Source: a virus (taxonomy: Duplodnaviria; Heunggongvirae; Uroviricota; Caudoviricetes). From it: a DNA stretch of 21,415 nucleotides. The position numbers and the translations under genes are program-made. Positions 1 to 12,084 of this stretch are shown here, in pieces. Each line of letters starts with the position of its first letter. The first letter of the stretch is position 1. The notes below the pieces were generated by a model that did not search any database, was not told the DNA's origin, and saw only the letters and a list, made by a program, of their open reading frames with translations. Location: IMG/VR virus record IMGVR_UViG_2737471822_000004, positions 1 through 21,415 of that record. The stretch is one strand, 5' to 3'.

Positions 1-705
1 TTAATTGTCTCTGATGGTTTTGGAAAATAGATCGTTGACTTCAAAACCATACCTTACAACCAAGTCATATGCTCCAGATTCTATGTATGAGTTTTCAAAA
101 TCCTTTTTGCTGTTTTCTGTGTAACCTCCTATTCCTATTAAATAATCTTCCACCTCTTTTAATCTTGTCGATTTTTCTTTTCCAGTATTCAATAACTTGC
201 TATCGTCATCAAATTCTGCTTTATATTTTTCATGTAGTTTAGTTATAGAGGGGGATAAATTTTTAATTTTAAGAAGAATATTTTGTTGATCAGTGTCTCT
301 TAATTCCTTAATGTAAGGGTTGCTATAAAAAGTTTTTTCAAAGCAACTGGTTATATCTTTGTTTAAAAATGTTTTTAATTCCTTCATTCTTACATCATGT
401 GATTTTTTACTGTCATCTTCAGATGGTTGACGCATAAGTATTTCTGTTGGAGAACATTGGGAGATTGCATCAACAACATATTTTCTTGAATATTCCTTTC
501 TTAACTTTAAATATAGAGTTTTTTCTTTGTCTTGTAATTGTTTATATTCGATTTCTTTTTTTGCTATTGATTCCTGCAGATTTGCATTTTGGTATATCGG
601 AATTACTGTGTAAAATATTGTAAAGGTTGTCAAAAAAAACAATCCAACTTGGGCAATGTAACTTACTCTAATCAACCATAAATCAAATTTAGTATTAGTA
701 TTCAT
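1..705 (-). CDS. Hypothetical membrane-anchored coiled-coil protein, cargo gene B (234 aa), paralog of the upstream gene
   Basis: Complete ORF with stop at the window edge. N-terminal hydrophobic helix (IAQVGLFFLTTFTIFYTVIPIYQ) followed by a K/E-rich heptad-like region. N-terminal ~50 aa align with ORF 722..1570 (shared FYTV.PIYQ...E.IAKKE motif). Very AT-rich. No recognisable catalytic motif. Confidence 0.65.
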   Translation of the reverse strand: MNTNTKFDLWLIRVSYIAQVGLFFLTTFTIFYTVIPIYQNANLQESIAKKEIEYKQLQDKEKTLYLKLRKEYSRKYVVDAISQCSPTEILMRQPSEDDSKKSHDVRMKELKTFLNKDITSCFEKTFYSNPYIKELRDTDQQNILLKIKNLSPSITKLHEKYKAEFDDDSKLLNTGKEKSTRLKEVEDYLIGIGGYTENSKKDFENSYIESGAYDLVVRYGFEVNDLFSKTIRDN

Positions 706-721
706 TATAAGATATCCAATA

Positions 722-1570
722 TTAGTCTAAATGTTGAATGTCTTTTAAGAAATCCATGGCGCGGATTCTTGATTGACCATTTATCAGGAAAATATAAGAT
801 GATAGTTCTCTTTCTGCAGTGTTATTTTTCATTATTTCGTTTTCATTTTTGCGTAACTTAGTTGACTCTATAGTTTTTATCAGACTATTAATTTTTTCAT
901 CAAAACCGATAGGTTTTTTTGTTAATGAAATCTTATTTTTTTCAATAGCGCGACGGATCTTTGCTAGAATTTTGTTGCGGATATTTTCAGGGACATTTTC
1001 TGAACTTGAGATAAAGTTATGATTGCCATTTTTTAATGCTTCATTAATTGCATCATAAGGAGATATATATAAATTACTAGGAGTATTATAGGCTGTTTTG
1101 GCGTCACCCAGTGTATTGTTCACAAAATCTGTGCTCTTAGAAATATAAACTACTCCAACTAGCCCCGAAAAATTCTCCCAGAAAACAGATTCAAGATTCT
1201 TGTTGTTTGCATTGACCGCTCTTTTGGAAATGGTCTTTTGTTTATTTAGTTCATTTAAAGTTTTTCTTAGTTCAGAATTTATTGAATTTAATTTTTCTTC
1301 TGATTCTTTGTATTGTAAATCAAGTTTGGCAATGCTTCCCTCCAATTCTTTTCGTAAGATTTTATTATTCTCTATAAATTTTTGGGAGTTTTCCATTGCT
1401 GTTTTTAATTTATTTAATTCAACTTCTTTTTTTGCAATTTCTTCTGATAAAAGTTCCTTTTGGTAAATTGGTCTTACTGTATAAAAATATCCAAAAATAG
1501 CAAATGCCACCAATACAAACTGTGATACATGGCTAACTCGGCTCAAAAAAACATCAACTTTATTTGACAT
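722..1570 (-). CDS. Hypothetical membrane-anchored coiled-coil protein, cargo gene A (282 aa)
   Basis: N-terminal TM helix (FVLVAFAIFGYFYTVRPIYQ) then a long coiled-coil-like segment. Start aligns with the paralog start. GAGG 5 nt upstream of ATG. 16-nt spacing to the downstream gene suggests an operon. Confidence 0.65.
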   Translation of the reverse strand: MSNKVDVFLSRVSHVSQFVLVAFAIFGYFYTVRPIYQKELLSEEIAKKEVELNKLKTAMENSQKFIENNKILRKELEGSIAKLDLQYKESEEKLNSINSELRKTLNELNKQKTISKRAVNANNKNLESVFWENFSGLVGVVYISKSTDFVNNTLGDAKTAYNTPSNLYISPYDAINEALKNGNHNFISSSENVPENIRNKILAKIRRAIEKNKISLTKKPIGFDEKINSLIKTIESTKLRKNENEIMKNNTAERELSSYIFLINGQSRIRAMDFLKDIQHLD

Positions 1571-1604
1571 AACGCCTCTATAAGATTCTCTTTTTATCTA
1601 CAAC

Positions 1605-1610
1605 ATTATA
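1605..1610 (-). promoter_or_regulatory. Possible -10 hexamer (TATAAT on minus strand) for the cargo operon
   Basis: Perfect TATAAT about 35 nt upstream of the 282-aa start codon. The region is AT-rich, so a chance match is plausible. Confidence 0.25.
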
Positions 1611-2004
1611 ATTTTTTAATGAAAAAAATCATCTAAAAATTAGTTCAAAGCAATACGTTCAAACTGATATTGATGCTTAGGAGCTAATCGGTACGTATTG
1701 ATGGTACAACAGAAAAGAACAATAGAAAGCTTGGGGGCTGACGTTGCTACTGGCGCACATACCCATGTCGTACTAAAAGAGTTCATTTGATTTTATAACT
1801 ATATCAGCCCGTTATTTTTATGTTGATGCGAACAGCCCCGCACGCCTGCCCGCTTCGCTTAACAGACTGGTTTTCATGCACCTCATAAATCGTCTCAGAA
1901 GCCACCACACGAGGGCTTTCTCGTCAAAAATGGTGCATAAGGTTCATGCGTTTTCATGCGCTATAGACATGCACTCATGCGCTCTCAGGCCAGCCAGGGA
2001 AAAG

Positions 2005-2034
2005 GTGTTAAAAATCCCGGTACTCGACCGGGAT
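2005..2034 (-). terminator. Rho-independent terminator after the sid-psu-delta operon
   Basis: Perfect 8-bp stem ATCCCGGT / ACCGGGAT (2014-2021 and 2027-2034) with a 5-nt loop. On the minus strand it is followed by UUUUAACACC. Lies about 20 nt downstream of the delta stop. Confidence 0.7.
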
Positions 2035-2054
2035 TACGTGGGCGTTTTTTCTAA

Positions 2055-2336
2055 TCAGACAGGAATCTGCTGACGGCTTGACAGTTTTGACGCGGAGCCA
2101 TAGCGATTGAGCGTTTGCTGTTGTTTTACCGGGGGTTGTGATTTGTCTGGTTCCTGTTCATTGCGCCGGGGTTTCATGATTATCTTATCCACACTCTCCA
2201 GTGCCGTAAATGTGCAGGAACATTCCAGATTCTGGCACTGATACCACGAGCGTTTAACTGACGGAGCTTCATAGGCTGCTGTTCTGGCGTGTGCAACTGT
2301 ACCGCATTCCGGACATTTAAGTGCCATTAAAATCAC
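2055..2336 (-). CDS. delta: Ogr/Delta-family zinc-finger late transcription activator (93 aa)
   Basis: Translation carries the CPECG...HART...YQCQN.ECS zinc-finger pattern typical of P2 Ogr / P4 Delta. Start overlaps the psu stop by 4 nt. Confidence 0.85.
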   Translation of the reverse strand: MILMALKCPECGTVAHARTAAYEAPSVKRSWYQCQNLECSCTFTALESVDKIIMKPRRNEQEPDKSQPPVKQQQTLNRYGSASKLSSRQQIPV

Positions 2337-2884
2337 TCCTGTATATCGTTAATGTCATTCAGGCGTTGCTGAAAATGCAGATGTTGTGCCGGGGTGTAAG
2401 AGTCCTGGCAATCACGAATCATCCCGGGGTCAGGTATCAAACCGGATTCATCCAGGATCTCACGATAATCCCCGGCAATTTCAGGCGGTGTTATTGCCAG
2501 CTGGCGAACCAGAGCACTGCGTAATATACGGGACGCAACGTCAACCCCTCCGCGTCCCTTCAGGAACGGAGCCAGTGCAGATGTCAGGGCTGCCCCATTC
2601 GCCTGCATAAAATTGCTGAGAGCTGCTTCTGTGCAGGCCTCCATCAGTAAATGCTGCGAGTAAATGCATTCGCGCGCAGCACAGTTAATTTGCCATTTCA
2701 GCACATCCAGACGTTCCCGCAGTAATTCGAGCTGTCGGGCATAATCTGCTGGTTTTTCTGTGGCAGCAAGGAGAGATGCTATCTGTTGTTCAACGGCTTT
2801 TCGGCTCTCACTATGTCCGGCCCACAGAATACGGGCATTCCGAAAACTGGTAAGTGCCTGGTCAGGCGTGCCTCGGGCCGTCAT
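2333..2884 (-). CDS. psu: Psu-like polarity suppression / capsid decoration protein (183 aa)
   Basis: Size, all-helical composition and recalled P4 Psu motifs (LKWQIN.AA, FMQ..G.AL..ALAP, YTPAQ). Sits inside the late operon, coupled to sid and delta by 4-nt overlaps. Confidence 0.7.
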   Translation of the reverse strand: MTARGTPDQALTSFRNARILWAGHSESRKAVEQQIASLLAATEKPADYARQLELLRERLDVLKWQINCAARECIYSQHLLMEACTEAALSNFMQANGAALTSALAPFLKGRGGVDVASRILRSALVRQLAITPPEIAGDYREILDESGLIPDPGMIRDCQDSYTPAQHLHFQQRLNDINDIQE

Positions 2885-3624
2885 ACTGCTTTCTCCTTCT
2901 CAGCAAGTTCCTGACGAACCTTAATTTTATGCATAGCTGCCGGAGAGAGTTGATTACTGAAATCCAGACGCGCCGCATAATCCGGGGCAATTCCCGCCAG
3001 TTTAAACACCGGGTCCTGTTCAGGCATCGCATCGTTAGCCAGAGCCGGTCTGGTGATATGTTTATGAATAAAGTCTTTCAGCACTGTGTCCGGGTCATTA
3101 ACTGAATTCACCACACCCACAACGGCACTGGCTTCCCGGCCCATTGTGGATTTAAGCAGGCTCAGCGTCTGAATAAGCGCTTTTCCATGCGACTGCATAA
3201 AATCTTCCCAGATTTGTTTTGCACGAATATCCACAAGAATATTATGCGCGTGGATATACTTTCCGGCTAATTCTGCAGCTTTCTGCGGCAAAAGTGCATT
3301 TTCGCTTTCCTGAGCCGCCAGCAGCTCATCAAAATCCTCAAGCGTTTCTCGTCCCAGCGCAATTTCCGTGCGCAGTTTTTTCATTTCCTTTGAGACCACG
3401 CCCTGACTTTCACGAAACAGCGTGCGCCACTCCTCATTCAGTGTGTTCGTCGTGGCTTCCATTTCAGCGCGACGCTGGCGGATTGTCGCAATATTATCCG
3501 CTGCCGCTTTCTGCTGACGACGTGCTTCAAGCCATGCGTTTCTGGCTGTGTTCATGGTTTCCAGTGCCCGCTGCGTTACAGCCGGAAAAGTGGAAAGGTT
3601 GTTATTCACTGCGGTGTTGTTCAT
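2881..3624 (-). CDS. sid: Sid-like external scaffold / capsid size determination protein (247 aa)
   Basis: First gene of the late operon, immediately downstream of tandem TGT-N12-ACA dyads. Size close to P4 Sid, helical Ala/Glu-rich sequence. AGGAG 6 nt upstream of ATG. Confidence 0.65.
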   Translation of the reverse strand: MNNTAVNNNLSTFPAVTQRALETMNTARNAWLEARRQQKAAADNIATIRQRRAEMEATTNTLNEEWRTLFRESQGVVSKEMKKLRTEIALGRETLEDFDELLAAQESENALLPQKAAELAGKYIHAHNILVDIRAKQIWEDFMQSHGKALIQTLSLLKSTMGREASAVVGVVNSVNDPDTVLKDFIHKHITRPALANDAMPEQDPVFKLAGIAPDYAARLDFSNQLSPAAMHKIKVRQELAEKEKAV

Positions 3625-3658
3625 GACTTCTCCTGTCGGGTTGGTTCGTTACGTCAAT

Positions 3659-3714
3659 TGTGTCGTGGCTGACACAAGCACACTATCGGTGATCAGTGTG
3701 TGGTGGCTGGCACA
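3659..3714 (-). promoter_or_regulatory. Late promoter region with two TGT-N12-ACA dyads (Ogr/Delta-type activator binding sites)
   Basis: TGTgtcgtggctgacACA at 3659-3676 and TGTgtggtggctggcACA at 3697-3714, centres 38 bp apart, about 45 and 80 nt upstream of the sid ATG. Confidence 0.6.
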
Positions 3715-3802
3715 ACGGGCGCTTGCGGTTATTCAGACGTGGCTATGAAAGCCAGCCAGATAAAAATGCCCTCTGTTTCAGTCTGCTTTATGTCCCTGAT
3801 GC

Positions 3803-3991
3803 GGTGGAACAGGTGAAACATGTGTTACTGCTTTGTTTTATAAAGTATTTATATACACTGCACCGGTGGAACATCGCGGGTAACAAGGTGGAACAGCGGA
3901 TTGGCTGGCGTTACATCTGTTCCACCTCACTATTTCAGAAGGTGAAACAGGTTCAGCCCTTGTAAAATACGGTTGTTCCACCTGTTTCACC
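3803..3991. repeat. Iteron cluster: 8 copies of 9-mer GGTG(G/A)AACA in both orientations, candidate alpha-binding origin/crr
   Basis: Copies at 3803, 3812, 3866, 3887, 3941 (forward) and 3919, 3974, 3983 (inverted, TGTT(C/T)CACC). Outer pairs form an 18-bp inverted repeat. Located between the alpha stop and the sid promoter. Confidence 0.7.
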
Positions 3992-4025
3992 TGTTACCCT
4001 TAATAAATAAGACTCACGCAAAGCC

Positions 4026-6698
4026 TTAACCCGGCACCTCGCTGTTGAAGACATAGAGCCTGCGGGGATTCATCTCTGGCGGGCGAATGGTTGTCTGGAG
4101 TTTGCCATCAGTGGAGGGCAGCAGGTATCCACGATCTGCGCACAGACGCGCCACCTTGCGCGGGTCAAATCCCCTGCAGATTTCTTTCCAGCCGGACGGC
4201 ATGACATAGAACGTAGTGACAGCTTCCGTGCCCTGCGCGGTACTGCCTTTCTCCACCCTTCGCCAGCCCACCATATTGCCGGGGCGGTTGCGCTCGTCAT
4301 ACCAGTCTGCAAAGCGGCTGTACTGATTCGCGGTAAAGAAACTGCGAACCTGCTCCAGTGCGGCGATATCTTCCTGATTGGCGGTGTGCCCGCGATCTTT
4401 CAGCCATGCGTTCAGGCAGACGCGGGTTGCCCGCAGTGCTTCACCCTCAGGCCAGCCGGTGATACCCAGACGGGTTGCCAGTTCACCTGCCATCGCCACC
4501 AGTGCAAAGCGGTTCACAGCCCGGCCCACTTGATTGCCTGCATCTTTCGGAGTCAGGGCGGCAGCATATTCCTTCATCAGCGATTTTGCCTGTGCCGTTA
4601 GTCCGTTAAGATCAGCGGTCAGTGCTTTCAGCCACTCCCGGAACGGCGAACCGTAGTAGCAGGACGTGGCCCATTCAAGATGCTCTGCCAGAGCCTTGCC
4701 GCTGTCGAAGCCGTGCAGCTCCTCAAAAACGCCAAACTTCCCGGAATCGCTGGGGATCTGGATCATCCTGACTTCCATCCCGGCAAAAGTACGCTCACCG
4801 GCCTTTGCCGCATGTTCGGTCAGAGACAACTCGCCAGTTGAAAAGAACAACAGGCGCCACTGCTTACGGGTACGCAGCTCACCGTCCGTACCGGCACGGC
4901 CCTTGCCTTGACCGTTTGCCAGCATGTAGGCGATATTGCCTGCCTCGCGTCCGTCAACTTCCCGGATCTCATCAAGCATCATGGCGGCATCGTTGCGGCG
5001 GCTGGCGCATCCCTCCAGCGCGTTGCCGGTGGCCCGCCATGTCTGCCAGTAGTCAGGCCCGCCGCAGACGGAGGTTGCTGCTTTCATGGTGGTGGTCTTA
5101 CCGTCTGTCGATTCCCCTTTGAGGTGGTAGCCGCCGCCGTCCATACCAACCAGCCGTAACAGTGGTGCAGCAAAGGCCAGGCTGACAGCAAATGCCACGC
5201 GGGAGTTGCCGGTACAGTAGCGGGATACATGCTCCCGCCATTCCTCTGTTGTGCCCGACACGCGGAAATCACGCCCCTGCACGGAAGTGGTCTGGAGAAT
5301 GACACCCTCTGCACCTTCACCGCTGACCTCATCCTGCAGGACGTAAACCTGACCATGCCAGCCAGTACGACTGACGCAGGTCACGCGGCGTTCCGGTTTA
5401 CACAGTGAGATATATTCCATCAGGCGTGCGCGTGCCTCACCGGTGGTGCTGATATAAGACAGCCCGTTAACCAGCAGTACCCGGCGCAGTTCCTCACCAC
5501 TGCCGCTCAGCATTTCCATCGGCATCGCCCAGCGGCGACACTCACCCCACGTATCTTCCCATTCCAGCAGTCGTCCGAAGTTACCGCCATCGGCATCGCA
5601 GGTGATTGCCGTCACGCGCAGCGGGCTGCATATTTTGACGTTCTGGATCTCCGTCTCACCGTTGCGCTGTACCTGCTTTTCATACCAGAGATATTCCTGG
5701 GTAAGACGGAACCCGTGCGGCAGTTGCGTGCGGCTTTCCCCGCACAGTACCAGACCGTTGCGAAAGGCTTCACGGGCACGGGTAATACCGTGCTCCCGAT
5801 GAAAGTCATTCCAGTCAGCCTTAATCTCTCCTGGTGGCAGCGTCATCCAGCCGCCAACAGCTTTTGCCGCCCGTTCAGCAAAGGCTCTGCCGGGATTCTC
5901 ACCCCCGTCCTGAAAATCGTTATCACCGGCGATGATAATTTTTACCTCAGGCCAGCGTGCCCGCAGCGACTGCGCCACATTGGGCAGGTTGCCCGCAGAT
6001 ATGGCAGCCACTACGCATCCGGCAGTGAGCTGGCTTACCGTCAGCGCCGTAGCGTAACCTTCGGTAATCACCACCTGTATCGGTGGTTCAGACGGTAACG
6101 GGCTGAGCGACACAAACGCGCCTTTCATCGTGCTGCCGGGCAGTATGCTTTTTTCACCCGTCGGGGCGATAAGCTGTGCACCGGTCACGGCTCCGGTGTT
6201 GGTCGTGAGTGGTAACAGCAGGGAACCGGCAGGAAAATCCTTACCGCTGATATGCTGTACGCTTCCGGTCAGAGAGGCCGGGTATCCGGCGAACCCTTTT
6301 CCTGTCAGATAGGCGCTTTCTCCCGTGTGGCTCTCTTTCATCAGCGCCGCCACGGTAAGACCCATGTCGCGTTTAGGGGCTTTTTGTCTGGCAGGCTTAA
6401 CAGGCAGTTCCTGCATATCCGGCACATTAAGCACCTGCGCCACCTCCTGCGCAGCCTTTCTGACGCTGTAACCGGTTACGAGCTTAACCAGATCCAGACC
6501 GTCACCATTGCCACACTGGCTGCAGATCCACGTCCCGCGCCCGTCAAGGTCATCAAGGCGAAAACGATCCTTGCCCCCACATTTCGGGCAGGGACCGTGC
6601 CTGCCGTTTTCAGGTACATCAATACGCAGCATCTGCAGAATAACGGGCCATTTCCCCCGTGCGGCGGCTGAAACCTGCGTAACCGTCTGTATTGTCAT
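4026..6698 (-). CDS. alpha: Alpha-type primase-helicase (890 aa)
   Basis: N-terminal zinc-binding CPKCGG...CSQCG, TOPRIM-like EGYATAL / AGDND acidic motifs, C-terminal Walker A GESTDGKTT. Start overlaps the upstream ORF stop (ATGA). Confidence 0.9.
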   Translation of the reverse strand: MTIQTVTQVSAAARGKWPVILQMLRIDVPENGRHGPCPKCGGKDRFRLDDLDGRGTWICSQCGNGDGLDLVKLVTGYSVRKAAQEVAQVLNVPDMQELPVKPARQKAPKRDMGLTVAALMKESHTGESAYLTGKGFAGYPASLTGSVQHISGKDFPAGSLLLPLTTNTGAVTGAQLIAPTGEKSILPGSTMKGAFVSLSPLPSEPPIQVVITEGYATALTVSQLTAGCVVAAISAGNLPNVAQSLRARWPEVKIIIAGDNDFQDGGENPGRAFAERAAKAVGGWMTLPPGEIKADWNDFHREHGITRAREAFRNGLVLCGESRTQLPHGFRLTQEYLWYEKQVQRNGETEIQNVKICSPLRVTAITCDADGGNFGRLLEWEDTWGECRRWAMPMEMLSGSGEELRRVLLVNGLSYISTTGEARARLMEYISLCKPERRVTCVSRTGWHGQVYVLQDEVSGEGAEGVILQTTSVQGRDFRVSGTTEEWREHVSRYCTGNSRVAFAVSLAFAAPLLRLVGMDGGGYHLKGESTDGKTTTMKAATSVCGGPDYWQTWRATGNALEGCASRRNDAAMMLDEIREVDGREAGNIAYMLANGQGKGRAGTDGELRTRKQWRLLFFSTGELSLTEHAAKAGERTFAGMEVRMIQIPSDSGKFGVFEELHGFDSGKALAEHLEWATSCYYGSPFREWLKALTADLNGLTAQAKSLMKEYAAALTPKDAGNQVGRAVNRFALVAMAGELATRLGITGWPEGEALRATRVCLNAWLKDRGHTANQEDIAALEQVRSFFTANQYSRFADWYDERNRPGNMVGWRRVEKGSTAQGTEAVTTFYVMPSGWKEICRGFDPRKVARLCADRGYLLPSTDGKLQTTIRPPEMNPRRLYVFNSEVPG

Positions 6699-7078
6699 AC
6701 TTCCCCCTCATACAACGTCACACCGGTACTGCAGAAGTCATCAAAGGCCGCCGGAAGCGTGCGGTACATCTCCGCCATCACTTCACAGCCGCGCGCGGTC
6801 AGTACCGGCGGCGCGGTCAGCAGTGACGGCTCCAGCATGTCAGTCAGCAGTGCCAGCGCGGCAGCGGCGCCCTGCACTTCGCCGTACTCGTTAATCAGTA
6901 CGCACTCGATATGCAGCGCAATGGCCATTTCAATACGCTCCACTGTCAGGCTGTGCGGACCATACTGATCACTGCCAGTTTCGTTCAGCATTTTCTGCCG
7001 CCATGCTGAAGCAATAGCCCGCCGGTAAAGCGCGGTGGTCATTTCTACCGGGAAAATGGAAACCTGCGGCTGGTTCAT
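6695..7078 (-). CDS. Hypothetical protein (127 aa), immediately upstream of alpha
   Basis: ORF with ATGA stop/start overlaps on both sides. Position is analogous to the small genes preceding alpha in P4 (orf151/epsilon region). No motif recognised. Confidence 0.55.
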   Translation of the reverse strand: MNQPQVSIFPVEMTTALYRRAIASAWRQKMLNETGSDQYGPHSLTVERIEMAIALHIECVLINEYGEVQGAAAALALLTDMLEPSLLTAPPVLTARGCEVMAEMYRTLPAAFDDFCSTGVTLYEGEV

Positions 7079-7359
7079 CTGGCACCTCCTTCAATCAGTG
7101 CGCAGCTGTGTGCAATATCCGTCAAATCTGCCAGCAGGTACTCCATCAGCGCGGCGACACCAGGCGCACAGCCTGCGTCCAGTGCTCCGGCCTGAGACGG
7201 GTATTCAGAAAAGAGAAGCTGGAGCATGTCGCAGGCATTTCTTGCGCGGGTCAGCTTTCCGAAACTGTCCTCTGACAACCCATAGGCAAAAGCACCGGTA
7301 TTGTGTTTTTCAGGCAAAGTGTGGCCCTGAGCACCGTTGAGCCCGTTTGAAATATTCAT
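7075..7359 (-). CDS. Hypothetical protein (94 aa)
   Basis: GGAG 10 nt upstream of ATG. Stop overlaps the next start. Epsilon-like by position and size only. Confidence 0.5.
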   Translation of the reverse strand: MNISNGLNGAQGHTLPEKHNTGAFAYGLSEDSFGKLTRARNACDMLQLLFSEYPSQAGALDAGCAPGVAALMEYLLADLTDIAHSCALIEGGAR

Positions 7360-7390
7360 CGTGAATTACTCCGTTTTCAGCGGTATTTTG

Positions 7391-7750
7391 TCAGAGAAAC
7401 TTTGAATAGTGACCGTCGTCAGGCTCAGCAGAACGCCGTATGGTACGCTCCCGCCAGCGGATAAATAGCACAGACGGATGCAGTGTCAGCGGGCCGGAAC
7501 CACTACTGCCTGCAGGAGCTGGTGCAGGCTTAAAGAGCGGTACATCAAACAGGCGCGTATACCGCTGTTCAAACCATGCCAGAGGGCAGGAAGAAAGCTG
7601 GTTGTCGCTGTCATGACGTATCAGCACTTCACAGCTGAATTCAGGATTAACCAGCGCCACAGAGGGCGAGGCTTCTATTAATCGGATAATCGTGACCGTC
7701 CAGCCACGTTCATGCTGCCAGCGTTCGCCGGGGTGCGGATAATTACGCAT
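7391..7750 (-). CDS. Hypothetical protein (119 aa from the RBS-supported ATG; the ORF extends to 7780)
   Basis: GGAGGTG 5 nt upstream of the ATG at 7750. Overlaps the end of the upstream small ORF by 8 nt. Confidence 0.5.
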   Translation of the reverse strand: MRNYPHPGERWQHERGWTVTIIRLIEASPSVALVNPEFSCEVLIRHDSDNQLSSCPLAWFEQRYTRLFDVPLFKPAPAPAGSSGSGPLTLHPSVLFIRWRERTIRRSAEPDDGHYSKFL

Positions 7751-7919
7751 GTTCACCTCCGCAGGGAATGCGCCCGGCAAAGCTCAGTACATAGTCCGGG
7801 GCAAGTCTGCGCCGCGCTGATCGTTCGTTATCTGCGGTGATCCTTAACATCACAGGACGGGCATTGCGTTGACTGCGGTTGATCGCCGCAAATAACCAGG
7901 TACACTTCTGTTTAGCCAT
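7743..7919 (-). CDS. Hypothetical small protein (58 aa), first gene of the replication operon
   Basis: GAGGT 8 nt upstream of the ATG at 7919. The longer 76-aa ORF lacks an RBS at its first ATG. Confidence 0.4.
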   Translation of the reverse strand: MAKQKCTWLFAAINRSQRNARPVMLRITADNERSARRRLAPDYVLSFAGRIPCGGEHA

Positions 7920-8003
7920 CTTCGTTACCTCATATAACGTGCTGGTCAGACGCCTCGGTGCTGCTGCAAACACTCCGGGGCGTTGCTATTTTGTTTTTCT
8001 GTG

Positions 8004-8047
8004 TGTAATGTGTCATTACACATAAATACATTACAATGGGTGTAATT
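8004..8047. promoter_or_regulatory. Divergent promoter/operator region with GTAATG-type palindromes
   Basis: TGTAATG-tgt-CATTACA perfect palindrome at 8004-8020, further CATTACA (8029-8035) and TGTAATT (8041-8047) half-sites overlapping the start of the plus-strand regulator gene. Confidence 0.45.
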
Positions 8048-8230
8048 GACGTGTCAACACACAAAAATGAAAGACGTGGGAATCCGCCATTCCAGTTCCG
8101 ACTTGACCCTGAACTGCGTGAACTGATGGAACAAGCACAACAGCAGGATGGCGATGAATCGCTAGCGGCTTGGATCAAGCGCATTCTACGCAAAGAGTTA
8201 CAAAGCCGAGGTTTAGAACCAAAGAATTGA
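8036..8230 (+). CDS. Small ribbon-helix-helix-like transcriptional regulator (64 aa), the only plus-strand gene in the satellite
   Basis: PFQFRLDPELRELMEQ... fits the beta-strand then helix pattern of Arc/CopG/ParD-type RHH proteins. Divergent from the replication operon. No clear SD at the first ATG; the GTG at 8051 is an alternative start. Confidence 0.5.
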   Translation: MGVIDVSTHKNERRGNPPFQFRLDPELRELMEQAQQQDGDESLAAWIKRILRKELQSRGLEPKN

Positions 8231-8240
8231 TTAATACGTT

Positions 8241-8263
8241 GGGGAGGCTTTTTTCTCCCCAGC
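8241..8263. terminator. Hairpin between the converging RHH gene and alpA (possible bidirectional terminator)
   Basis: GGGGAG / CTCCCC stem with a T-rich loop. No strong U-tract on either side, so function is uncertain. Confidence 0.3.
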
Positions 8264-8279
8264 TTTGTTAATATTGTCA

Positions 8280-8495
8280 TTACACTACTTCCTCCAATCC
8301 TGCTGATTGAGCTTTAACCCACTGCCTAATTTCTTGTGCATCGTAAACAGATACCCGTTTTGAAATGCGTATAGATTTGGGAAATTCAGGATTGTTCTTT
8401 TCCCAGCGCCAGAGAGTAACCGTACTTATTTGCAAAAAGTCAGCAGTAGCTCGTGGGCGGGCATGTCCAGTGATAGGATAAGTTTTTAATGTCAT
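8280..8495 (-). CDS. alpA: AlpA-family HTH regulator (71 aa)
   Basis: FLQISTVTLWRWEKNNPEFPKSIRISKRVSVYDAQEIRQWV matches the AlpA/Xis-type winged-helix pattern. Typical position between the integrase and the primase operon. Confidence 0.8.
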   Translation of the reverse strand: MTLKTYPITGHARPRATADFLQISTVTLWRWEKNNPEFPKSIRISKRVSVYDAQEIRQWVKAQSAGLEEVV

Positions 8496-8503
8496 GAAAT
8501 TAC

Positions 8504-8531
8504 CTGCCGTATTATGTAATGAACACGGCAG
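8504..8531 (-). promoter_or_regulatory. Stem-loop in the alpA 5' leader
   Basis: 7-bp stem CTGCCGT / ACGGCAG with a 14-nt loop that contains a GTAATG motif, ending 8 nt upstream of the alpA ATG. Confidence 0.3.
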
Positions 8532-8773
8532 ATACTATGGGGATATCAAAATGCTGTGAAGGTAGTGTAATCAACTCTACCTGTAGATTGTTTCAGTCTA
8601 CCCCTTTTGTTTTAATCCCGCATGATTAACCGCTAATCGTAATTTTCTTAAGATTTCTTGTTCATTAGTGATAAATATTGGAGGTAGCTCTCCTAAATGT
8701 TTAATTATGGCGTTAGTCCACTTTTCAGGACTTATCTCTTTTCTTTCACCACGACATTCGCTTGGGTATTTTG

Positions 8774-9481
8774 CTAATATATATATATGGCTGCATTTAA
8801 TAACCCCTCCCTATTTTTTGCATGATGCTCAGCAGTGTTATTTAATCGCTTGGGGATTTTAGGTTCAGATGAAATTCTTTTCGTAAGTAAACTTGGCATA
8901 GGAATTCCAGTTTTTACTGATTTCCATATTAACTCTAAATCTCTTCGCATGATAAGAAGATCTTCAAATGGAATCTCAATGACCTTATTTCCTTCATATG
9001 AGGCCGTTGCCATCAAAACATTATCTCGTATTTTTACCGGTTTAAGCCTGAATTCATAATCTGGATCTATAGCTAATCCATTTTTTATGTCACTTATCAT
9101 ATCATCGGCGTACCAAATACCACAGGCAAATCCTATAATTTGAAGCCCATTTTCAAAATGTTCAAAGGAATCATCTTTAAGGTCATACCATATTGTTGAA
9201 AATTCCATCTCTAGTGATTGATTAGTTAATACGGGATGAATTAAGTCAATTTCCATTTTCTGATTTTTATTGAGGAAATTAACATTAAATCTAACTGCAA
9301 GTCCATCCGCCTTGAATGCGATATTAAAAGCGCCTATTTCGTATAGATGTAATAAATCATCAATCTCGCATTCTAATAGTCTTGAAGCGCGTTCAAATGA
9401 ACAATATTCTAATGGTGGTATTTTTTTGTCAATCCATAGATTTCCTAAGAATATAGTTTCATTCTCTGTTGAATGCTGCAT
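8774..9481 (-). CDS. Hypothetical protein (235 aa), AT-rich cargo gene between integrase and alpA
   Basis: Long ORF with GAGG 7 nt upstream of ATG, 30 nt downstream of the integrase stop. Lower GC than neighbours. No motif recognised. Confidence 0.6.
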   Translation of the reverse strand: MQHSTENETIFLGNLWIDKKIPPLEYCSFERASRLLECEIDDLLHLYEIGAFNIAFKADGLAVRFNVNFLNKNQKMEIDLIHPVLTNQSLEMEFSTIWYDLKDDSFEHFENGLQIIGFACGIWYADDMISDIKNGLAIDPDYEFRLKPVKIRDNVLMATASYEGNKVIEIPFEDLLIMRRDLELIWKSVKTGIPMPSLLTKRISSEPKIPKRLNNTAEHHAKNREGLLNAAIYIY

Positions 9482-9511
9482 TATGACCTCTGTTTTAAAT
9501 TATAAGAGTAT

Positions 9512-10846
9512 TTAATTGATAATGTTAATACCTGATAAGTCATAAGGAGCATGGAATTCGTCCTTATTTAGTTCCAGATAATTAGACCACCATTGCATCA
9601 TTCTGCGGCGTTCCTGCATGTGCTGCGCAAGATGCACATATGCTGCCCGCACTTCGTTTCTTTCTTGGTGACTCATCTGCCGTTCAACTGCATCGCGTGA
9701 CCAGAGTCCTGATTCGGTCAGTGCAGAGCAGGCCATCGCCCTGAACCCATGCAAGCAAACATCAGTTTGAGTGTCGTAACCCATCGTTCGCAGTGCTTTA
9801 TTAACTGTGTTTTCGCTCATCGGTTTATATGGGTTGCTGTCACCGGGAAAAACCAGCAGATATTCACCACTGATTTTCCTTATATCCTCCAGTACCCCGA
9901 TAGCCTGACTAGATAGCGGGACATAATGAGCAGCCCCCATCTTTGCACCCCGATCTGAGAATTTAACCCCTGCGATCTCTTCACGTTGTCCTGGTATCGT
10001 CCATAGCCCATTTTCAATGTCGATCTCCTCCCATCTGGCATGTCGTAGTTCGCTGGATCGCACAAAAGTGTGCAGGGAAAAGAGAACTGCTAGGCGAGTC
10101 AATGGTCTTCCCGTGTAACTTCTCGTTTTCGCTAACAGTTCAGGTAAACGTTCGAGAGGTAGTGCGGGGCGATGTCGTACTTTGGGGGCCGTAATTGCAC
10201 CTTTTAGATCGTGGGCAGGGTTGTAATCGACAATTCCACGTTGCACGGCATAACGGAAGATGCTCGTCATAGTGGTTTTTACACGGCTCGTTGTGGCACC
10301 AATTCCTTTCTCAGTCATCTCAACCAGCATCGGCATCAAGTCACGGGTTTTGAGCGTATCGATAGGCTTTGAACCGATGGCAGGAAAGAGGTGGTTTTCC
10401 ATTTCTCGGAGAATTTTTTTACGGGTGATCTCTTTCCACTCAGGATGCCCCATCGTTCCACTATGCCACTCTCTGGCAACACTCTCGAACGTGGGGGAAA
10501 TTGGGTCTTCCTTTTTGGGTTTCTTTGCTTCGCGAGGATCACGACCATCGGCTAGTAGTTGCCTGGCTTCATCACGCCGTTTCCGCGCTGTTGCAAGTGA
10601 GACATCTGGGTAGACCCCTAATGCTAATGTCACTTGTTTTCCATCAAAACGATAATTCATACGCCAGTATTTTCCACCAGTCTTTCGTACCAGTAGATAC
10701 AAACTCCCTCCATCGGTAAGTTTGTAATCATTGGTCTTCGGCTTGGCGTTTTCTATCTGTTTGGGGGAAAGCACATTAATGGCCATATCTGTACTCATTT
10801 TGGTAAATTGATGGTATCTGCATATCGAACTGGGGAATACCATCAC
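9512..10846 (-). CDS. Tyrosine recombinase, P4-family integrase (int1); probable true start at 10786 or 10798
   Basis: N-terminal arm-binding domain (KLTDGGSLYLLVRKTGGKYWRMNYRF...VTLALGVYPDVSLATARKRRDEAR) and C-terminal catalytic region (HGFRA...RAAYVH...RRRMMQWW). The canonical N-terminus begins at MAINVLSPK. Confidence 0.9.
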   Translation of the reverse strand: MMVFPSSICRYHQFTKMSTDMAINVLSPKQIENAKPKTNDYKLTDGGSLYLLVRKTGGKYWRMNYRFDGKQVTLALGVYPDVSLATARKRRDEARQLLADGRDPREAKKPKKEDPISPTFESVAREWHSGTMGHPEWKEITRKKILREMENHLFPAIGSKPIDTLKTRDLMPMLVEMTEKGIGATTSRVKTTMTSIFRYAVQRGIVDYNPAHDLKGAITAPKVRHRPALPLERLPELLAKTRSYTGRPLTRLAVLFSLHTFVRSSELRHARWEEIDIENGLWTIPGQREEIAGVKFSDRGAKMGAAHYVPLSSQAIGVLEDIRKISGEYLLVFPGDSNPYKPMSENTVNKALRTMGYDTQTDVCLHGFRAMACSALTESGLWSRDAVERQMSHQERNEVRAAYVHLAQHMQERRRMMQWWSNYLELNKDEFHAPYDLSGINIIN

Positions 10847-11057
10847 TTATACCATCACGAGGTTGTAATGTCATGAAATTAACTGAAATGAAAATCAGGC
10901 CGATTCGGTGATAACTTACTGTTTTTTTAAGTGGTTATGTAATGAAGTGAAATGTAGAGAAAGGTCTTTAAAGTGTCCCTGCAGACATCTACTTGAGGCG
11001 GCAGGGGGTTGATTAGAATGGTGTTTTTTAGATTTGAGAAATATTTTACCCGCTATT
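10847..11057. other. Inter-element junction: candidate att site region, duplicated alpA start segment, and direct repeats
   Basis: Contains a second copy of the 16-mer TAATGTCATGAAATTA that overlaps the alpA start codon (10866-10881 versus 8487-8502), a tRNA 3'-end-like GTGTCCCTGCAG (10963-10974), and a TATTTTACCC direct repeat at 11042-11063. Confidence 0.35.
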
Positions 11058-11258
11058 TTACCCATTCGCGCGGCTTAAGAGCTTATTTTTGAATTCACAA
11101 TGGTCACGATATAACCATCTTGCTCGTCCGTGGATAACTTTGGCTTTAGGCAGGTCGCCGGACTTAATCCGGTCATAGATGAAGGTTTTACCAAAGCCAG
11201 TATCAGCCATGATGAATTTCAAATCAACCAGTGAATCAGGTTGTAGTTCGTGTTGCAT
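11058..11258 (-). CDS. torI: TorI-like excisionase / recombination directionality factor (66 aa, AlpA/Xis-type winged helix)
   Basis: 66-aa protein MQHELQPDSLVDLKFIMADTGFGKTFIYDRIKSGDLPKAKVIHGRARW... with an HTH_17-like pattern. I recall this as the E. coli KplE1 TorI sequence. GGAGA upstream of ATG. Lies at the prophage end opposite the IntS-like integrase. Confidence 0.65.
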   Translation of the reverse strand: MQHELQPDSLVDLKFIMADTGFGKTFIYDRIKSGDLPKAKVIHGRARWLYRDHCEFKNKLLSRANG

Positions 11259-11300
11259 GAGTGCTATCTCCGAATAGGGAATCGAACCTGCAAATCAGGC

Positions 11301-11323
11301 AATAAAAAACCGCATTGATGCGG
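11301..11323 (-). terminator. Rho-independent terminator at the end of the early operon
   Basis: Minus-strand hairpin CCGCA-ucaa-UGCGG followed by UUUUUUAUU, between the 114-aa gene and the torI-like gene. Confidence 0.6.
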
Positions 11324-11382
11324 CAATGGTAGGTCTGGATATCTTGAGAAATGAACGGGCCTCATCGAGTGTGAGGCTGTGG

Positions 11383-11727
11383 TTAGTCCTTGCGTAACTC
11401 GCTAATTCTTCTGTAAGTCTCTGGTGCTTTGTTTCCGTGTATCTTCATTTCAGACTTCAACAGAGCAACGAGAGAATCCCATTCGTTGAGGATGCCTTTG
11501 AATGCCGGAACGCGCTTTGCAACCTTGTCGAATGAATCCCTGATTTCTGGAATCTGCTCGACAAGCGCAACGCATCGCCGGAAGTCGGCTACGTCATGTG
11601 GAGCGCCGAAGTGATGACCATAGATATTCTTTTTCAGTCCACATGCGATTGAGGCAAGAGTTGCGCTACTGATGCCAACATCGCCAGTCGATTGCCATTT
11701 CAAAACCTTCATAGCCAAATCTGACAT
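11383..11727 (-). CDS. Hypothetical prophage protein (114 aa)
   Basis: ORF co-oriented with the early operon. No motif recognised. Confidence 0.5.
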   Translation of the reverse strand: MSDLAMKVLKWQSTGDVGISSATLASIACGLKKNIYGHHFGAPHDVADFRRCVALVEQIPEIRDSFDKVAKRVPAFKGILNEWDSLVALLKSEMKIHGNKAPETYRRISELRKD

Positions 11728-11799
11728 TTCTTGTCTCCATAAAACAAAACTCGCCGTAGCGAGTTCAGATAAAAGAAATCCCCGCGAGTGCGAGGATTG

Positions 11800-12084
11800 T
11801 TATTCATTGCCGATATTCACCTTTATCGCGAACACCTTTACCGGTTTATCGCCGAAGTGCGGATGTGTGATTGTCTTGATTTCATATCCGTCATACGGGA
11901 CGTCAATTCTGCGGCTGGAATCGTCGCGCTTCGGATATCCCTTTGTGATAATCAGGCGGTCATGCTTACGGTTAACGAGGCGCTTTTTCCAGTAGTCATT
12001 ACACAAGCGATACTCTTCCGTTTTCTCCCCGCGAATCATGGCATCGAAGTATTCACCTTTGACGGCAAGTTGCAGGTTAGCCAT
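11800..12084 (-). CDS. ASCH/DUF3850-like small protein (94 aa from the ATG at 12084)
   Basis: MANLQLAVKGEYFDAMIRGEKTEEYR resembles the N-terminal pattern of ASCH/DUF3850 proteins. GGAGGTG 7 nt upstream. TAATG stop/start overlap with the upstream gene. Confidence 0.55.
   Translation of the reverse strand: MANLQLAVKGEYFDAMIRGEKTEEYRLCNDYWKKRLVNRKHDRLIITKGYPKRDDSSRRIDVPYDGYEIKTITHPHFGDKPVKVFAIKVNIGNE

What the first reader, a model, noticed from the sequence alone, without database searches (positions are those of the whole stretch)
8004..8263. Small RHH-like regulator divergent from the replication operon, with repeated GTAATG palindromes
P4 controls immunity with an RNA (the CI RNA), whereas here the only plus-strand gene encodes a 64-aa protein with a ribbon-helix-helix-like N-terminus. 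Its start is embedded in a perfect TGTAATG-tgt-CATTACA palindrome with extra half-sites, and similar GTAATG motifs recur upstream of alpA (8277, 8513, 8567) and near int1 (10927). This suggests a protein-based repressor acting at several promoters of the satellite.
Basis: partly seen in the sequence, partly recalled or inferred. Interest (0 to 1): 0.5.

Follow-up and report, generated by a model that had tools for sequence, protein, structure and literature searches.

The report
Swappable repressor cassette of phage satellites
The small plus-strand gene encodes a ribbon-helix-helix protein that most likely represses this P4-like phage satellite's replication operon, working beside a previously unlisted antisense RNA, and a cassette of the same layout sits in the model E. 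coli island EcCICFT073, where no repressor has been identified.

Summary

The perfect palindrome at 8002-8022 exists, but the start codon is not inside it.

Across about 75 related loci the inverted repeats change whenever the RHH N-terminus and beta-strand change. In Xenorhabdus islands only the RHH-plus-operator cassette is swapped, while the primase and AlpA stay 85-100% identical. So the RHH, not AlpA, reads these sites.

The repeats overlie a strongly conserved leftward promoter. Its -35 hexamer TTGACA lies inside RHH codons 1-3.

The window has no C4/CI or isrK RNA; P4 has both. It does carry a conserved two-hairpin plus-strand RNA (about 7914-7999) antisense to the ribosome site of the first operon gene. 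This RNA shows covariation and matches no Rfam family.

The single GTAATG copies near alpA and int sit inside other conserved elements and do not track the RHH, so a multi-promoter regulon is not supported.

Verdict: a new variant of a known kind. DNA binding and repression are inferred, not shown.

The parts
8036..8230 (+). RHH gene. Annotated as 64 aa from ATG 8036; the conserved start is GTG 8051, giving 59 aa (MSTHKNERRGNPPFQFRL...).
8002..8023 (.). Operator O1. Perfect TGTGTAATG-N3-CATTACACA (8002-8022) overlapping the more widely conserved ATGTGT-N4-ACACAT (8008-8023).
   Evidence: Conserved in 41 type-A loci and replaced by other palindromes in other RHH types.
8029..8046 (.). Operator O2. 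CATTACA (8029-8035) and TGTAAT (8041-8046), an inverted repeat with a 5-bp spacer.
   Evidence: In type B the equivalent second palindrome GGTAATTACC lies in the spacer of the leftward promoter.
8028..8057 (-). Predicted leftward promoter P_L of the icd-like...primase operon. The -35 TTGACA is the reverse complement of 8052-8057, inside RHH codons 1-3. Spacer 18 bp. The -10 TAATGT is the reverse complement of 8028-8033. Predicted start near 8021.
   Evidence: TTGACA at the same position in 64 of 75 distinct regions, with TAnnnT 17-18 bp away. Score of at least 9/12 in 64/75 regions against 6% of shuffles. Codons 1-4 show almost no synonymous change.
7983..8011 (+). Tentative rightward promoter P_R for the RHH gene: -35 TTGCTA 7983-7988, 17-bp spacer, -10 TAATGT 8006-8011.
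   Evidence: Position is conserved in type-A loci, but the consensus match of 7-8/12 is no better than shuffles. The RHH gene may instead be read through from the antisense-RNA promoter.
8238..8263 (+). Terminator-like hairpin after the RHH gene. The T-run is on the + strand only.
   Evidence: Sequence.
7914..7999 (+). Predicted antisense RNA. SL1 is 7915-7946, with loop CCUCAUA complementary to the SD and stem bases complementary to the icd-like start codon. SL2 is 7949-7984, followed by a U-run at 7985-7999 (intrinsic terminator).
   Evidence: Folds. Alignment A3 of 71 loci: 91.5% of cells paired against at most 49% in slid controls; 16 of 26 pairs with compensatory change; 0/500 shuffles reach the observed values. 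G.U pairs: 288 on the + strand against 42 on the - strand. No Rfam match.
7879..7906 (+). Predicted promoter of the antisense RNA: -35 TTGATC 7879-7884, 16-bp spacer, -10 TACACT 7901-7906. It lies inside the icd-like coding region on the other strand.
   Evidence: TAnnnT at this alignment position in 59 of 59 complete rows although the overlapping genes differ. It is TATAAT in Pasteurellaceae loci.
7743..7919 (-). Icd-like gene, the first gene of the repressed operon. Downstream are 7391-7750, 7075-7359, DUF5375/cnr-like 6695-7078 and alpha primase 4026-6698.
   Evidence: NCBIfam NF033153, 82.6 bits. Annotation. 54% identity to the C-terminal part of the P4 'cI ORF'.
8280..8495 (-). alpA/vis-like gene, convergent with the RHH gene. 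Predicted promoter at 8560-8532.
   Evidence: Pfam PF05930. Promoter scan. The convergent alpA arrangement recurs with several RHH types.

Best explanation
The gene encodes a small ribbon-helix-helix DNA-binding protein that acts as the type-specific repressor of the satellite's early replication operon (icd-like, two small ORFs, cnr-like DUF5375, alpha primase).

Proposed mechanism:
- RHH dimers bind two inverted-repeat operators, O1 (8002-8023) and O2 (8029-8046).
- The operators lie on the leftward promoter P_L. Its -35 is inside the RHH gene's first codons, its -10 is at 8028-8033, and its start is near 8021. Binding would block transcription of the operon.
- The same operators lie between any rightward promoter and the RHH start codon, so the protein would also limit its own synthesis.
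- Directly to the left, a roughly 80-nt plus-strand RNA (7914-7999) is complementary to the ribosome-binding site and start codon of the first operon gene. It ends in an intrinsic terminator and gives a second, post-transcriptional brake.
- The cassette (RNA terminator, operators, RHH gene) occupies the place where P4 carries the PLE leader and CI RNA. It exists in several specificity types that are exchanged between otherwise near-identical elements.
- Induction would most simply occur when helper-activated transcription from the alpA promoter reads through the RHH gene, antisense to it, into the operon.

Shown here in silico: the gene is real; the RHH fold is predicted; protein and operator co-vary; the promoter is conserved; the RNA structure shows covariation; C4/isrK RNAs are absent.

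Inferred: DNA binding, the direction of regulation, the immunity role and the induction route.
For: Fold:
- AF2 model with pLDDT 78 and beta-alpha-alpha topology.
- Foldseek top hits are Arc and NikR.
- PHROG 228 'Arc-like repressor', E 9e-6.

Real gene:
- 808 synonymous against 232 non-synonymous codon differences. The N-terminal arm and beta-strand are invariant.

Specificity:
- L061 and L066 have a 92-98% identical left operon, but their RHH is only 56% identical. Their palindromes change from TGTAATG..CATTACA to ATGGTAATTACCAT, present twice.
- At least six RHH types each have their own repeats.
- In Xenorhabdus loci AlpA is 94-100% and the primase 85-95% identical, yet only the hairpin interior, operators, RHH gene and terminator are swapped.

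Promoter:
- TTGACA-N17/18-TAnnnT occurs in 64 of 75 regions, against 6% of shuffles.

Position relative to P4:
- P4 gives C4 (74.9 bits) and isrK (60.8 bits). The window gives neither, even at E up to 10.
- Ten other loci with the module give neither.
- P4 has no RHH gene and no antisense-RNA element.

Antisense RNA.
Against: - No binding or expression data exist.
- The RHH gene's own promoter is not better than chance.
- The exact operator boundaries are ambiguous. In many type-A loci the TGTAATG/CATTACA arms are broken while ATGTGT-N4-ACACAT is kept.
- O1 and O2 have opposite half-site polarity.
- The protein has no sensor domain, so the induction route is speculative.
- The structure is a monomer model of a protein that would work as a dimer or tetramer.
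- Fold-search scores are modest, as expected for about 45 residues.
- In the E. coli swaps the whole right arm (alpA, int) changes together with the RHH, so only the Xenorhabdus comparison separates RHH from AlpA cleanly.
Confidence: 0.7

Rival explanations
1. The RHH protein is a multi-promoter regulator. Besides the head-to-head promoters it would bind the GTAATG copies at the alpA 3' end (8274-8288), the alpA leader (8515), upstream of the alpA promoter (8562-8571) and upstream of int (10864, 10938).
For: - All 8 TGTAATG copies of the window fall within 8004-12003.
- The 11-mer TGTCATTACAC at 8274-8284 is identical to the right half of O1 (CATTACA family D4 and pair I24).
- A 10-bp inverted pair flanks alpA (I8).
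Against: - All distal copies are single half-sites.
- 8515 lies in the loop of a conserved alpA-leader hairpin (8504-8531), also present in L007.
- 10864 belongs to the 16-bp palindrome TAATGTCATGAAATTA that also covers the alpA start.
- L002 has a 98% identical RHH but a 64% identical alpA, and has no TGTAAT outside the operator region.
- Type-B loci have no extra GGTAATTACC.
- The 8274 copy is absent in L007.
Confidence: 0.15
2. Same binding mechanism, different biological role. The RHH plus antisense RNA would be a plasmid-type copy-number control of the primase operon (like CopG plus RNAII of pMV158, or CopB plus CopA of R1) for the replicating or plasmid state, rather than the lysogenic immunity repressor.
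For: - The combination of a small RHH repressor and an antisense RNA over the initiation region of a replication operon matches that scheme.
- The CopG abstract (PMC2724298) describes CopG as the repressor controlling expression of the initiator gene repB.
- The module occurs on 111 plasmids.
- P4 can live as a plasmid, per Moura de Sousa and Rocha (PMC8628076).
Against: - The gene faces the operon rather than being co-transcribed with it.
- Most copies are in integrated satellites.
- The plasmid copy examined looks like a captured fragment next to resistance transposons, with no primase in the (incomplete) gene table.
Confidence: 0.15
3. The GTAATG palindromes are bound by AlpA/Vis or by the integrase, and the small ORF has an unrelated role.
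For: - From my own knowledge, not checked here: P4 Vis binds its own promoter region and attP.
- Motif copies occur near alpA and int.
- In the E. coli type-A/type-B swaps the alpA and int arm changes together with the palindromes.
Against: - Xenorhabdus loci have 94-100% identical AlpA yet carry either type-A or type-B palindromes, matching their RHH type.
- Type-A operators are conserved in loci with unrelated or absent alpA, and on plasmids.
Confidence: 0.04
4. The RHH protein is an antitoxin-like partner of the Icd-like cell-division inhibitor (a type II toxin-antitoxin logic).
For: - Many RHH proteins in the fold search are antitoxins: MazE, ParD, TacA, VapB.
- JGI names some homologues 'HicB family'.
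- The neighbouring gene is Icd-like.
Against: - The genes are head to head, not co-transcribed.
- The protein ends about 7 residues after helix 2, leaving no toxin-binding tail.
- In Xenorhabdus loci the facing gene is the primase itself.
Confidence: 0.04

Closest known systems
Arc and Mnt repressors with sar antisense RNA in the immI region of phage P22 (from my own knowledge)
   Same: Small RHH repressors that bind inverted-repeat operators placed on overlapping, opposed promoters. An antisense RNA lies over a ribosome site in the same region. Fold similarity to Arc was found here.
   Different: There is no detectable sequence relationship beyond the fold (18% identity; PDB sequence search empty). 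The controlled operon encodes replication functions of a satellite, not an antirepressor of a phage.
P4 CI RNA with seqA, and the P1/P7 C4 RNA-icd-ant system (Rfam RF01695 C4, RF01394 isrK)
   Same: Same genomic position, between alpA/vis and the icd-like gene at the head of the alpha operon. Presumably the same task of keeping that operon silent in the lysogen.
   Different: P4 uses a sense-strand RNA processed from the leader and has no protein. The window has no C4 or isrK match. Instead it has an opposite-strand cassette with an RHH gene and a cis-antisense RNA, and P4 has neither.
CopG plus antisense RNAII copy control of plasmid pMV158 (PMC2724298, abstract seen; RNAII from my own knowledge)
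   Same: An RHH repressor at the promoter of a replication operon, combined with a short antisense RNA over the initiation region.
   Different: copG is co-transcribed with repB, whereas here the gene faces the operon. The host element is an integrated phage satellite.
Stl/Rpr master repressors of Gram-positive PICIs (PMC6092414)
   Same: A repressor gene facing the excision and replication operon of a phage satellite.
   Different: Stl proteins are larger HTH proteins that are inactivated by binding helper proteins. This protein is 59 aa with no extra domain. [quoted passage not shown]
YlcI/YnfO family (NCBIfam NF041551), uncharacterised prophage proteins
   Same: RefSeq gives this name to the window protein in some genomes. 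The model matches residues 22-58. The protein at the equivalent position in EcCICFT073 is a true member (67.4 bits).
   Different: The window protein scores 20.7 bits against a cut-off of 30, so it is at best a distant relative. No functional study of the family was found.

Membership tests
Ribbon-helix-helix (Arc/MetJ/CopG) superfamily | N-terminal beta-strand followed by two helices in about 45 residues | tested here: met
Ribbon-helix-helix (Arc/MetJ/CopG) superfamily | Dimer forming a two-stranded antiparallel sheet that enters the major groove | not testable with these tools
   Only a monomer could be modelled. Alternating polar residues (Q20, R22) and a basic N-terminal arm (RRG) fit the pattern, but this is inference.
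Ribbon-helix-helix (Arc/MetJ/CopG) superfamily | Binds repeated (inverted or direct) short sites at its target promoter | tested here: inconclusive
   Two inverted repeats next to the gene co-vary with the protein type across about 75 loci and in cassette swaps. Physical binding was not tested.
YlcI/YnfO family (NCBIfam NF041551) | Score at or above the curated cut-off of 30 bits | tested here: not met
   20.7 bits, E 3e-4. The type-B protein gives no hit, and the EcCICFT073 protein gives 67.4 bits.
P4-type RNA immunity (C4/CI RNA plus isrK-like leader) | Match to Rfam RF01695 and RF01394 between alpA and the icd-like gene | tested here: not met
   None in the window at gathering score, nor at E up to 10 in 7300-8700. 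Positive control: P4 gives 74.9 and 60.8 bits.
Type II toxin-antitoxin antitoxin | Co-transcribed with an adjacent toxin, and a C-terminal toxin-binding extension | tested here: not met
   The gene faces its neighbour. Only about 7 residues follow helix 2.
Cis-encoded antisense RNA of the FinP/CopA/RNAII kind (for the 7914-7999 element) | Own promoter, stem-loops with a loop complementary to the target ribosome site, and an intrinsic terminator | tested here: met
   TAnnnT in 59/59 rows. Two helices with covariation and a + strand G.U bias. CCUC in the SL1 loop opposite the SD. Hairpin plus U-run.
Cis-encoded antisense RNA of the FinP/CopA/RNAII kind (for the 7914-7999 element) | The RNA is expressed and inhibits its target | not testable with these tools
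   No transcript data were available.
P4-like satellite (for the host element) | Core set of int, alpA, alpha primase, sid/psu and delta homologues | tested here: met
   Annotation of the identical element. BLASTP against P4: alpha 38%, cnr 40%, psu 30%, sid 24%, delta 45% identity. No clear epsilon homologue was found.

The most novel reading that the evidence does not exclude
The RHH gene together with the adjacent cis-antisense RNA forms a modular, exchangeable immunity cassette. It is used by several families of Gram-negative phage satellites: P4-like elements, classical and helper-embedded PICIs including the model EcCICFT073, and a capsid-gene-carrying island from Pasteurella. It would be the alternative to the P4 CI-RNA system, and would supply the global repressor that has been reported as unclear for Gram-negative PICIs. 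Its specificity types would make co-resident satellites hetero-immune.
Probability: 0.4. Interest if true: 0.75.

Novelty: new variant of a known kind. Interest (0 to 1): 0.62.

Why it matters
P4 is the textbook satellite whose lysogeny is held by an RNA. [quoted passage not shown] A later survey lists only C4/isrK-type immunity RNAs, found in some islands (PMC10111431).

This analysis points to a concrete, testable candidate. It is a 59-aa RHH protein with defined operators on a defined promoter, plus a structured antisense RNA that matches no Rfam family. A cassette with the same layout is present in EcCICFT073. There the RNA element is clearly related, but the small protein is a different family member.

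The natural specificity types give a ready-made swap experiment. In complete E. coli genomes the type-A cassette is in 217 of 5426, type B in 66, and the P4-type CI region in 998. The cassette also occurs on 111 plasmids.

Tried and rejected
- Pfam gave no family for the protein.
- A profile search of PDB sequences gave only chance hits.
- Literature searches combining P4-like or PICI with ribbon-helix-helix, Arc, CopG or operator terms found nothing on this gene. YlcI/YnfO has no functional paper in the library.
- The primary papers on P4 Vis binding sites are not in the library. The Vis consensus could therefore not be compared with GTAATG, and that comparison rests on comparative genomics instead.
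- The promoter scan's candidate leftward promoter (ATGACA 8016-8011, CAAAAT 7993-7988) was rejected because it is not conserved in other type-A loci (sequences). TTGACA-N18-TAATGT is conserved.
- A dedicated RHH promoter could not be supported statistically.
- The weak Rfam hit to the traJ 5' UTR (21 bits, E 1.7) was treated as chance.
- An automatic profile comparison of the family with the EcCICFT073 protein failed. A local hmmsearch gave 1.2 bits, so the two are not claimed to be homologous by sequence.
- PADLOC found no defence family in the two end genes or in the gene between alpA and int.
- The idea that the ORF is spurious was rejected on the substitution pattern.

Full report
**Setting.** The window holds a P4-like satellite from about 1 to 10970. 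A lambdoid prophage of the KplE1 type follows it directly; torI-like gene at 11058-11258.

An identical satellite in E. coli PD4 is annotated with every CDS on one strand: two hypothetical end genes, ogr/delta-like, two psu/sid-like, TOPRIM-DUF927 primase, DUF5375, two hypotheticals, Icd-like, alpA-type HTH, a hypothetical and the integrase. The single exception is a 64-aa 'YlcI/YnfO family protein' on the other strand, between the Icd-like gene and alpA. That is the ORF of the finding, 8036-8230.

**Observation.** The perfect inverted repeat TGTGTAATG-tgt-CATTACACA is at 8002-8022. Two more half-sites follow at 8029-8035 and 8041-8046. Four of the window's 17 TGTAAT hexamers therefore fall within 43 bp. 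TGTAATG occurs 8 times against 3.3 expected.

The start codon is not inside the perfect palindrome. ATG 8036 lies between half-sites 3 and 4. Homologues are mostly 59 aa and begin MSTHKNERRG, and in close relatives the position of ATG 8036 reads ACG. The conserved start is therefore GTG 8051. A perfect repeat with 9-bp arms is not remarkable at window scale (2 found, about 0.8 expected). Position, clustering and conservation are what count.

**The gene is real and the fold is RHH.** Against 36 type-A relatives there are 808 synonymous and 232 non-synonymous codon differences. None of the non-synonymous ones fall in R8-R23, which covers the basic arm, the strand and the start of helix 1.

Sequence-family results:
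- PHROG 228 'Arc-like repressor' matches at E 9e-6.
- Pfam gives nothing.
- The NCBIfam YlcI/YnfO model scores 20.7 bits against a cut-off of 30.
- The family is small: 34 clusters at E up to 0.001 among 1.84 billion representatives.

**Who reads the palindromes.** I fetched 80 loci from species genomes.

*E. coli and Shigella.* L061 and L066 have a left operon 92-98% identical to the window up to 7939-7954, and similarity stops there. Their RHH is 56% identical, with PPFQMRL in place of PPFQFRL. Their intergenic region carries ATGGTAATTACCAT twice in place of the GTAATG repeats.

*All loci.* At least six protein types each have their own repeats:
- GNKQIALRV with GTGTCATACAC
- DQYQIRL with TTGTAATTACAA
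- SPQFPMRL with GGTATATACC

*Xenorhabdus.* This is the cleanest case. The loci have AlpA proteins 94-100% identical and primases 85-95% identical, yet carry either the type-A or the type-B cassette. The alignment shows identity on both flanks. The replaced segment runs from the interior of a hairpin, through the repeats and the RHH gene, to the alpA stop codon.

Within type A the most constant core is ATGTGT-N4-ACACAT (8008-8023). The TGTAATG/CATTACA arms are often broken, so the exact operator register remains open.

**What the operators control.** On the minus strand a perfect TTGACA lies at 8057-8052, inside codons 1-3 of the RHH gene. TAATGT follows 18 bp downstream at 8033-8028. This arrangement (TTGACA, 17-18 bp, TAnnnT) holds in 64 of 75 distinct regions, against 6% of shuffles. 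Codons 1-4 show almost no synonymous change, which indicates a DNA-level constraint.

In type B the second palindrome sits exactly in the spacer of TTGACA-17-TATGAT. The predicted start is near 8021, which puts O1 at +1 to +20 and O2 over the -10 and spacer. Binding there should block the operon.

A rightward promoter (TTGCTA 7983-7988, TAATGT 8006-8011) keeps its position in type A but is no better than chance. The RHH gene may be read through from upstream.

**A second regulator next door.** Between the first operon gene and O1 every locus has two hairpins that fold much better on the + strand.

On an alignment of 71 distinct loci:
- 91.5% of cells pair, against at most 49% in slid controls.
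- 16 of 26 pairs show compensatory change.
- No shuffle reaches the observed values.
- There are 288 G.U pairs on the + strand and 42 on the - strand.

The first hairpin (7915-7946) presents CCUC in its loop, opposite the Shine-Dalgarno of the icd-like gene, and covers its start codon. The second (7949-7984) is GC-rich and followed by a U-run, that is, an intrinsic terminator. A TAnnnT hexamer lies 8-12 nt upstream in 59 of 59 complete rows, although the overlapping genes differ. It is TATAAT in Pasteurellaceae.

In the window this predicts an RNA of about 80 nt from near 7914. In the window itself SL1 is weaker than in most loci: a 5-bp inner stem plus 4 outer pairs. No Rfam family matches.

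**Relation to P4.** The same Rfam search finds the CI RNA (C4, 74.9 bits) and the isrK-like leader (60.8 bits) in P4. Neither appears in the window or in ten other loci with the cassette.

P4 has no RHH gene and no antisense element. The window's Icd-like protein matches the C-terminal part of the P4 ORF that overlaps CI. In P4-type elements alpA runs straight into a long Icd-like/eta gene. The cassette therefore sits where P4 has the PLE leader and CI.

**Distal GTAATG copies.**
- 8515 lies in the loop of a hairpin in the alpA leader (CTGCCGT 8504-8510 with ACGGCAG 8525-8531), also present in L007.
- 10864 is part of the 16-bp near-palindrome TAATGTCATGAAATTA, which also covers the alpA start (8487-8502).
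- The 12-mer TTATGTAATGAA is shared by 8512 and 10935.
- L002, with a 98% identical RHH but a different alpA, has no copy outside the operators. Type-B loci have no extra copies of their palindrome.

These copies more likely belong to alpA and int control, so the multi-promoter idea is not supported. The 11-mer at 8274-8284, identical to half of O1, remains unexplained.

**Distribution.**
- Complete E. coli genomes: the type-A cassette is in 217 of 5426, type B in 66, and the P4-type CI region in 998.
- Plasmids: the cassette is on 111 plasmids, and the one examined carries the whole module.
- Pasteurella 'phage' Pmp8: a 15-kb satellite-like record.
- E. coli islands whose gene order fits helper-embedded PICIs: int, alpA, a TIR-domain gene, the RHH gene, then the primase operon.
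- EcCICFT073: a 59-aa true YlcI/YnfO member faces the Icd-like-to-primase operon. The same RNA element is present (nhmmer E 9e-14; -41.6 against -24.3 kcal/mol on the other strand), with two copies of GGTGTGGCCCAC between them. Its protein is not sequence-similar to the window's protein (1.2 bits).

**Literature.**
- Moura de Sousa and Rocha do not mention such a regulator.
- Fillol-Salom et al. state that a global repressor in Gram-negative PICIs is unclear and that AlpA activates.
- Tommasini et al. report C4/isrK-type immunity RNAs in some islands and note that all non-hypothetical genes are unidirectional.
- I found nothing on this protein.

**Verdict.** The gene is a protein repressor at the head of the replication operon, and it reads the palindromes. 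The claim of several target promoters is not supported, and the contrast 'RNA in P4, protein here' is incomplete, because a different RNA appears to work beside the protein.

Mechanistically this is an ordinary RHH repressor. As an exchangeable RHH-plus-antisense-RNA cassette replacing the CI system across several satellite families, it is a new variant worth testing. All binding and regulatory effects are inferred.

Noticed in passing
window 7879-7999 (+ strand): A conserved two-hairpin RNA with its own -10 element and an intrinsic terminator, antisense to the ribosome site and start codon of the icd-like gene. It shows covariation in 71 loci, a strong + strand G.U bias and no Rfam match.
   Followed up: yes
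L092 18430-18900 (NC_004431.1 about 1380430-1380900, EcCICFT073): The model Gram-negative PICI has the same layout. A 59-aa YlcI/YnfO protein lies on the opposite strand, the same antisense-RNA element is present, and two copies of GGTGTGGCCCAC lie between them.
   Followed up: partly
window 8504-8531 (- strand RNA): Hairpin in the alpA leader (CTGCCGT with ACGGCAG) whose loop carries TGTAATG. It is conserved in L007, and an analogous hairpin with GTAATGAA in the loop occurs with the other alpA type (L002, L003).
   Followed up: partly
window 8487-8502 and 10866-10881; 8512-8523 and 10935-10946: A 16-bp near-palindrome TAATGTCATGAAATTA lies at the alpA start codon and again upstream of int, and the 12-mer TTATGTAATGAA is also shared. 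The int-proximal copy is conserved in L003 and L007 although their integrases are only 36-42% identical. These may be AlpA or Int sites.
   Followed up: partly
window 10818-10860: Repeats GATGGTAT and ATACCATC(A) between int and the att region, conserved in L003 and L007. They look like integrase arm-type sites.
   Followed up: no
window 8777-8788: An (AT)n tract is one unit longer than in strain PD4. This shifts the frame of the 293-aa gene between alpA and int, so the window has only a 235-aa ORF (8774-9481).
   Followed up: partly
window 8279-8288 and 8562-8571; 8274-8284: A perfect 10-bp inverted pair ATTACACTAC / GTAGTGTAAT brackets alpA and its promoter. The 11-mer TGTCATTACAC at the alpA stop codon is identical to the right half of O1. 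Neither was seen at the corresponding position in L007.
   Followed up: no
window 10960-11260: The satellite abuts a lambdoid prophage (torI-like gene at 11058-11258) and the window has no tRNA gene. In strain PD4 the identical satellite abuts tRNA-Arg, so this looks like a tandem arrangement at one attachment site.
   Followed up: partly
L083 4800-5200 (plasmid pKp_Goe_024-4) and 110 other plasmids: The complete type-A module (RNA element, operators, RHH gene at about 91% identity) is carried on IncR and other resistance plasmids of Klebsiella, E. coli and Salmonella. In the plasmid examined it lies near blaCTX-M-15 and IS elements.
   Followed up: partly
L027, L036, L057, L068 (about 3766-4465 in locus coordinates): Some loci carry two tandem RHH genes of different types.
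   Followed up: no
L084 7939-8004: The Rfam 'int-alpA RNA' (RF02996, 46 bits) matches in the Pasteurella satellite Pmp8. There is no such match in the window.
   Followed up: no
loci, about 40 nt upstream of the first-gene start on the + strand: The first gene of the leftward operon has a conserved N-terminus (MADTQHTQTRPKF...) in many loci, whether it is a small Icd-like protein or, in Xenorhabdus, the primase itself.
   Followed up: no
window 2013-2035: The only other perfect inverted repeat of the window with 9-bp arms and a short spacer, just downstream of the ogr/delta-like gene.
   Followed up: no
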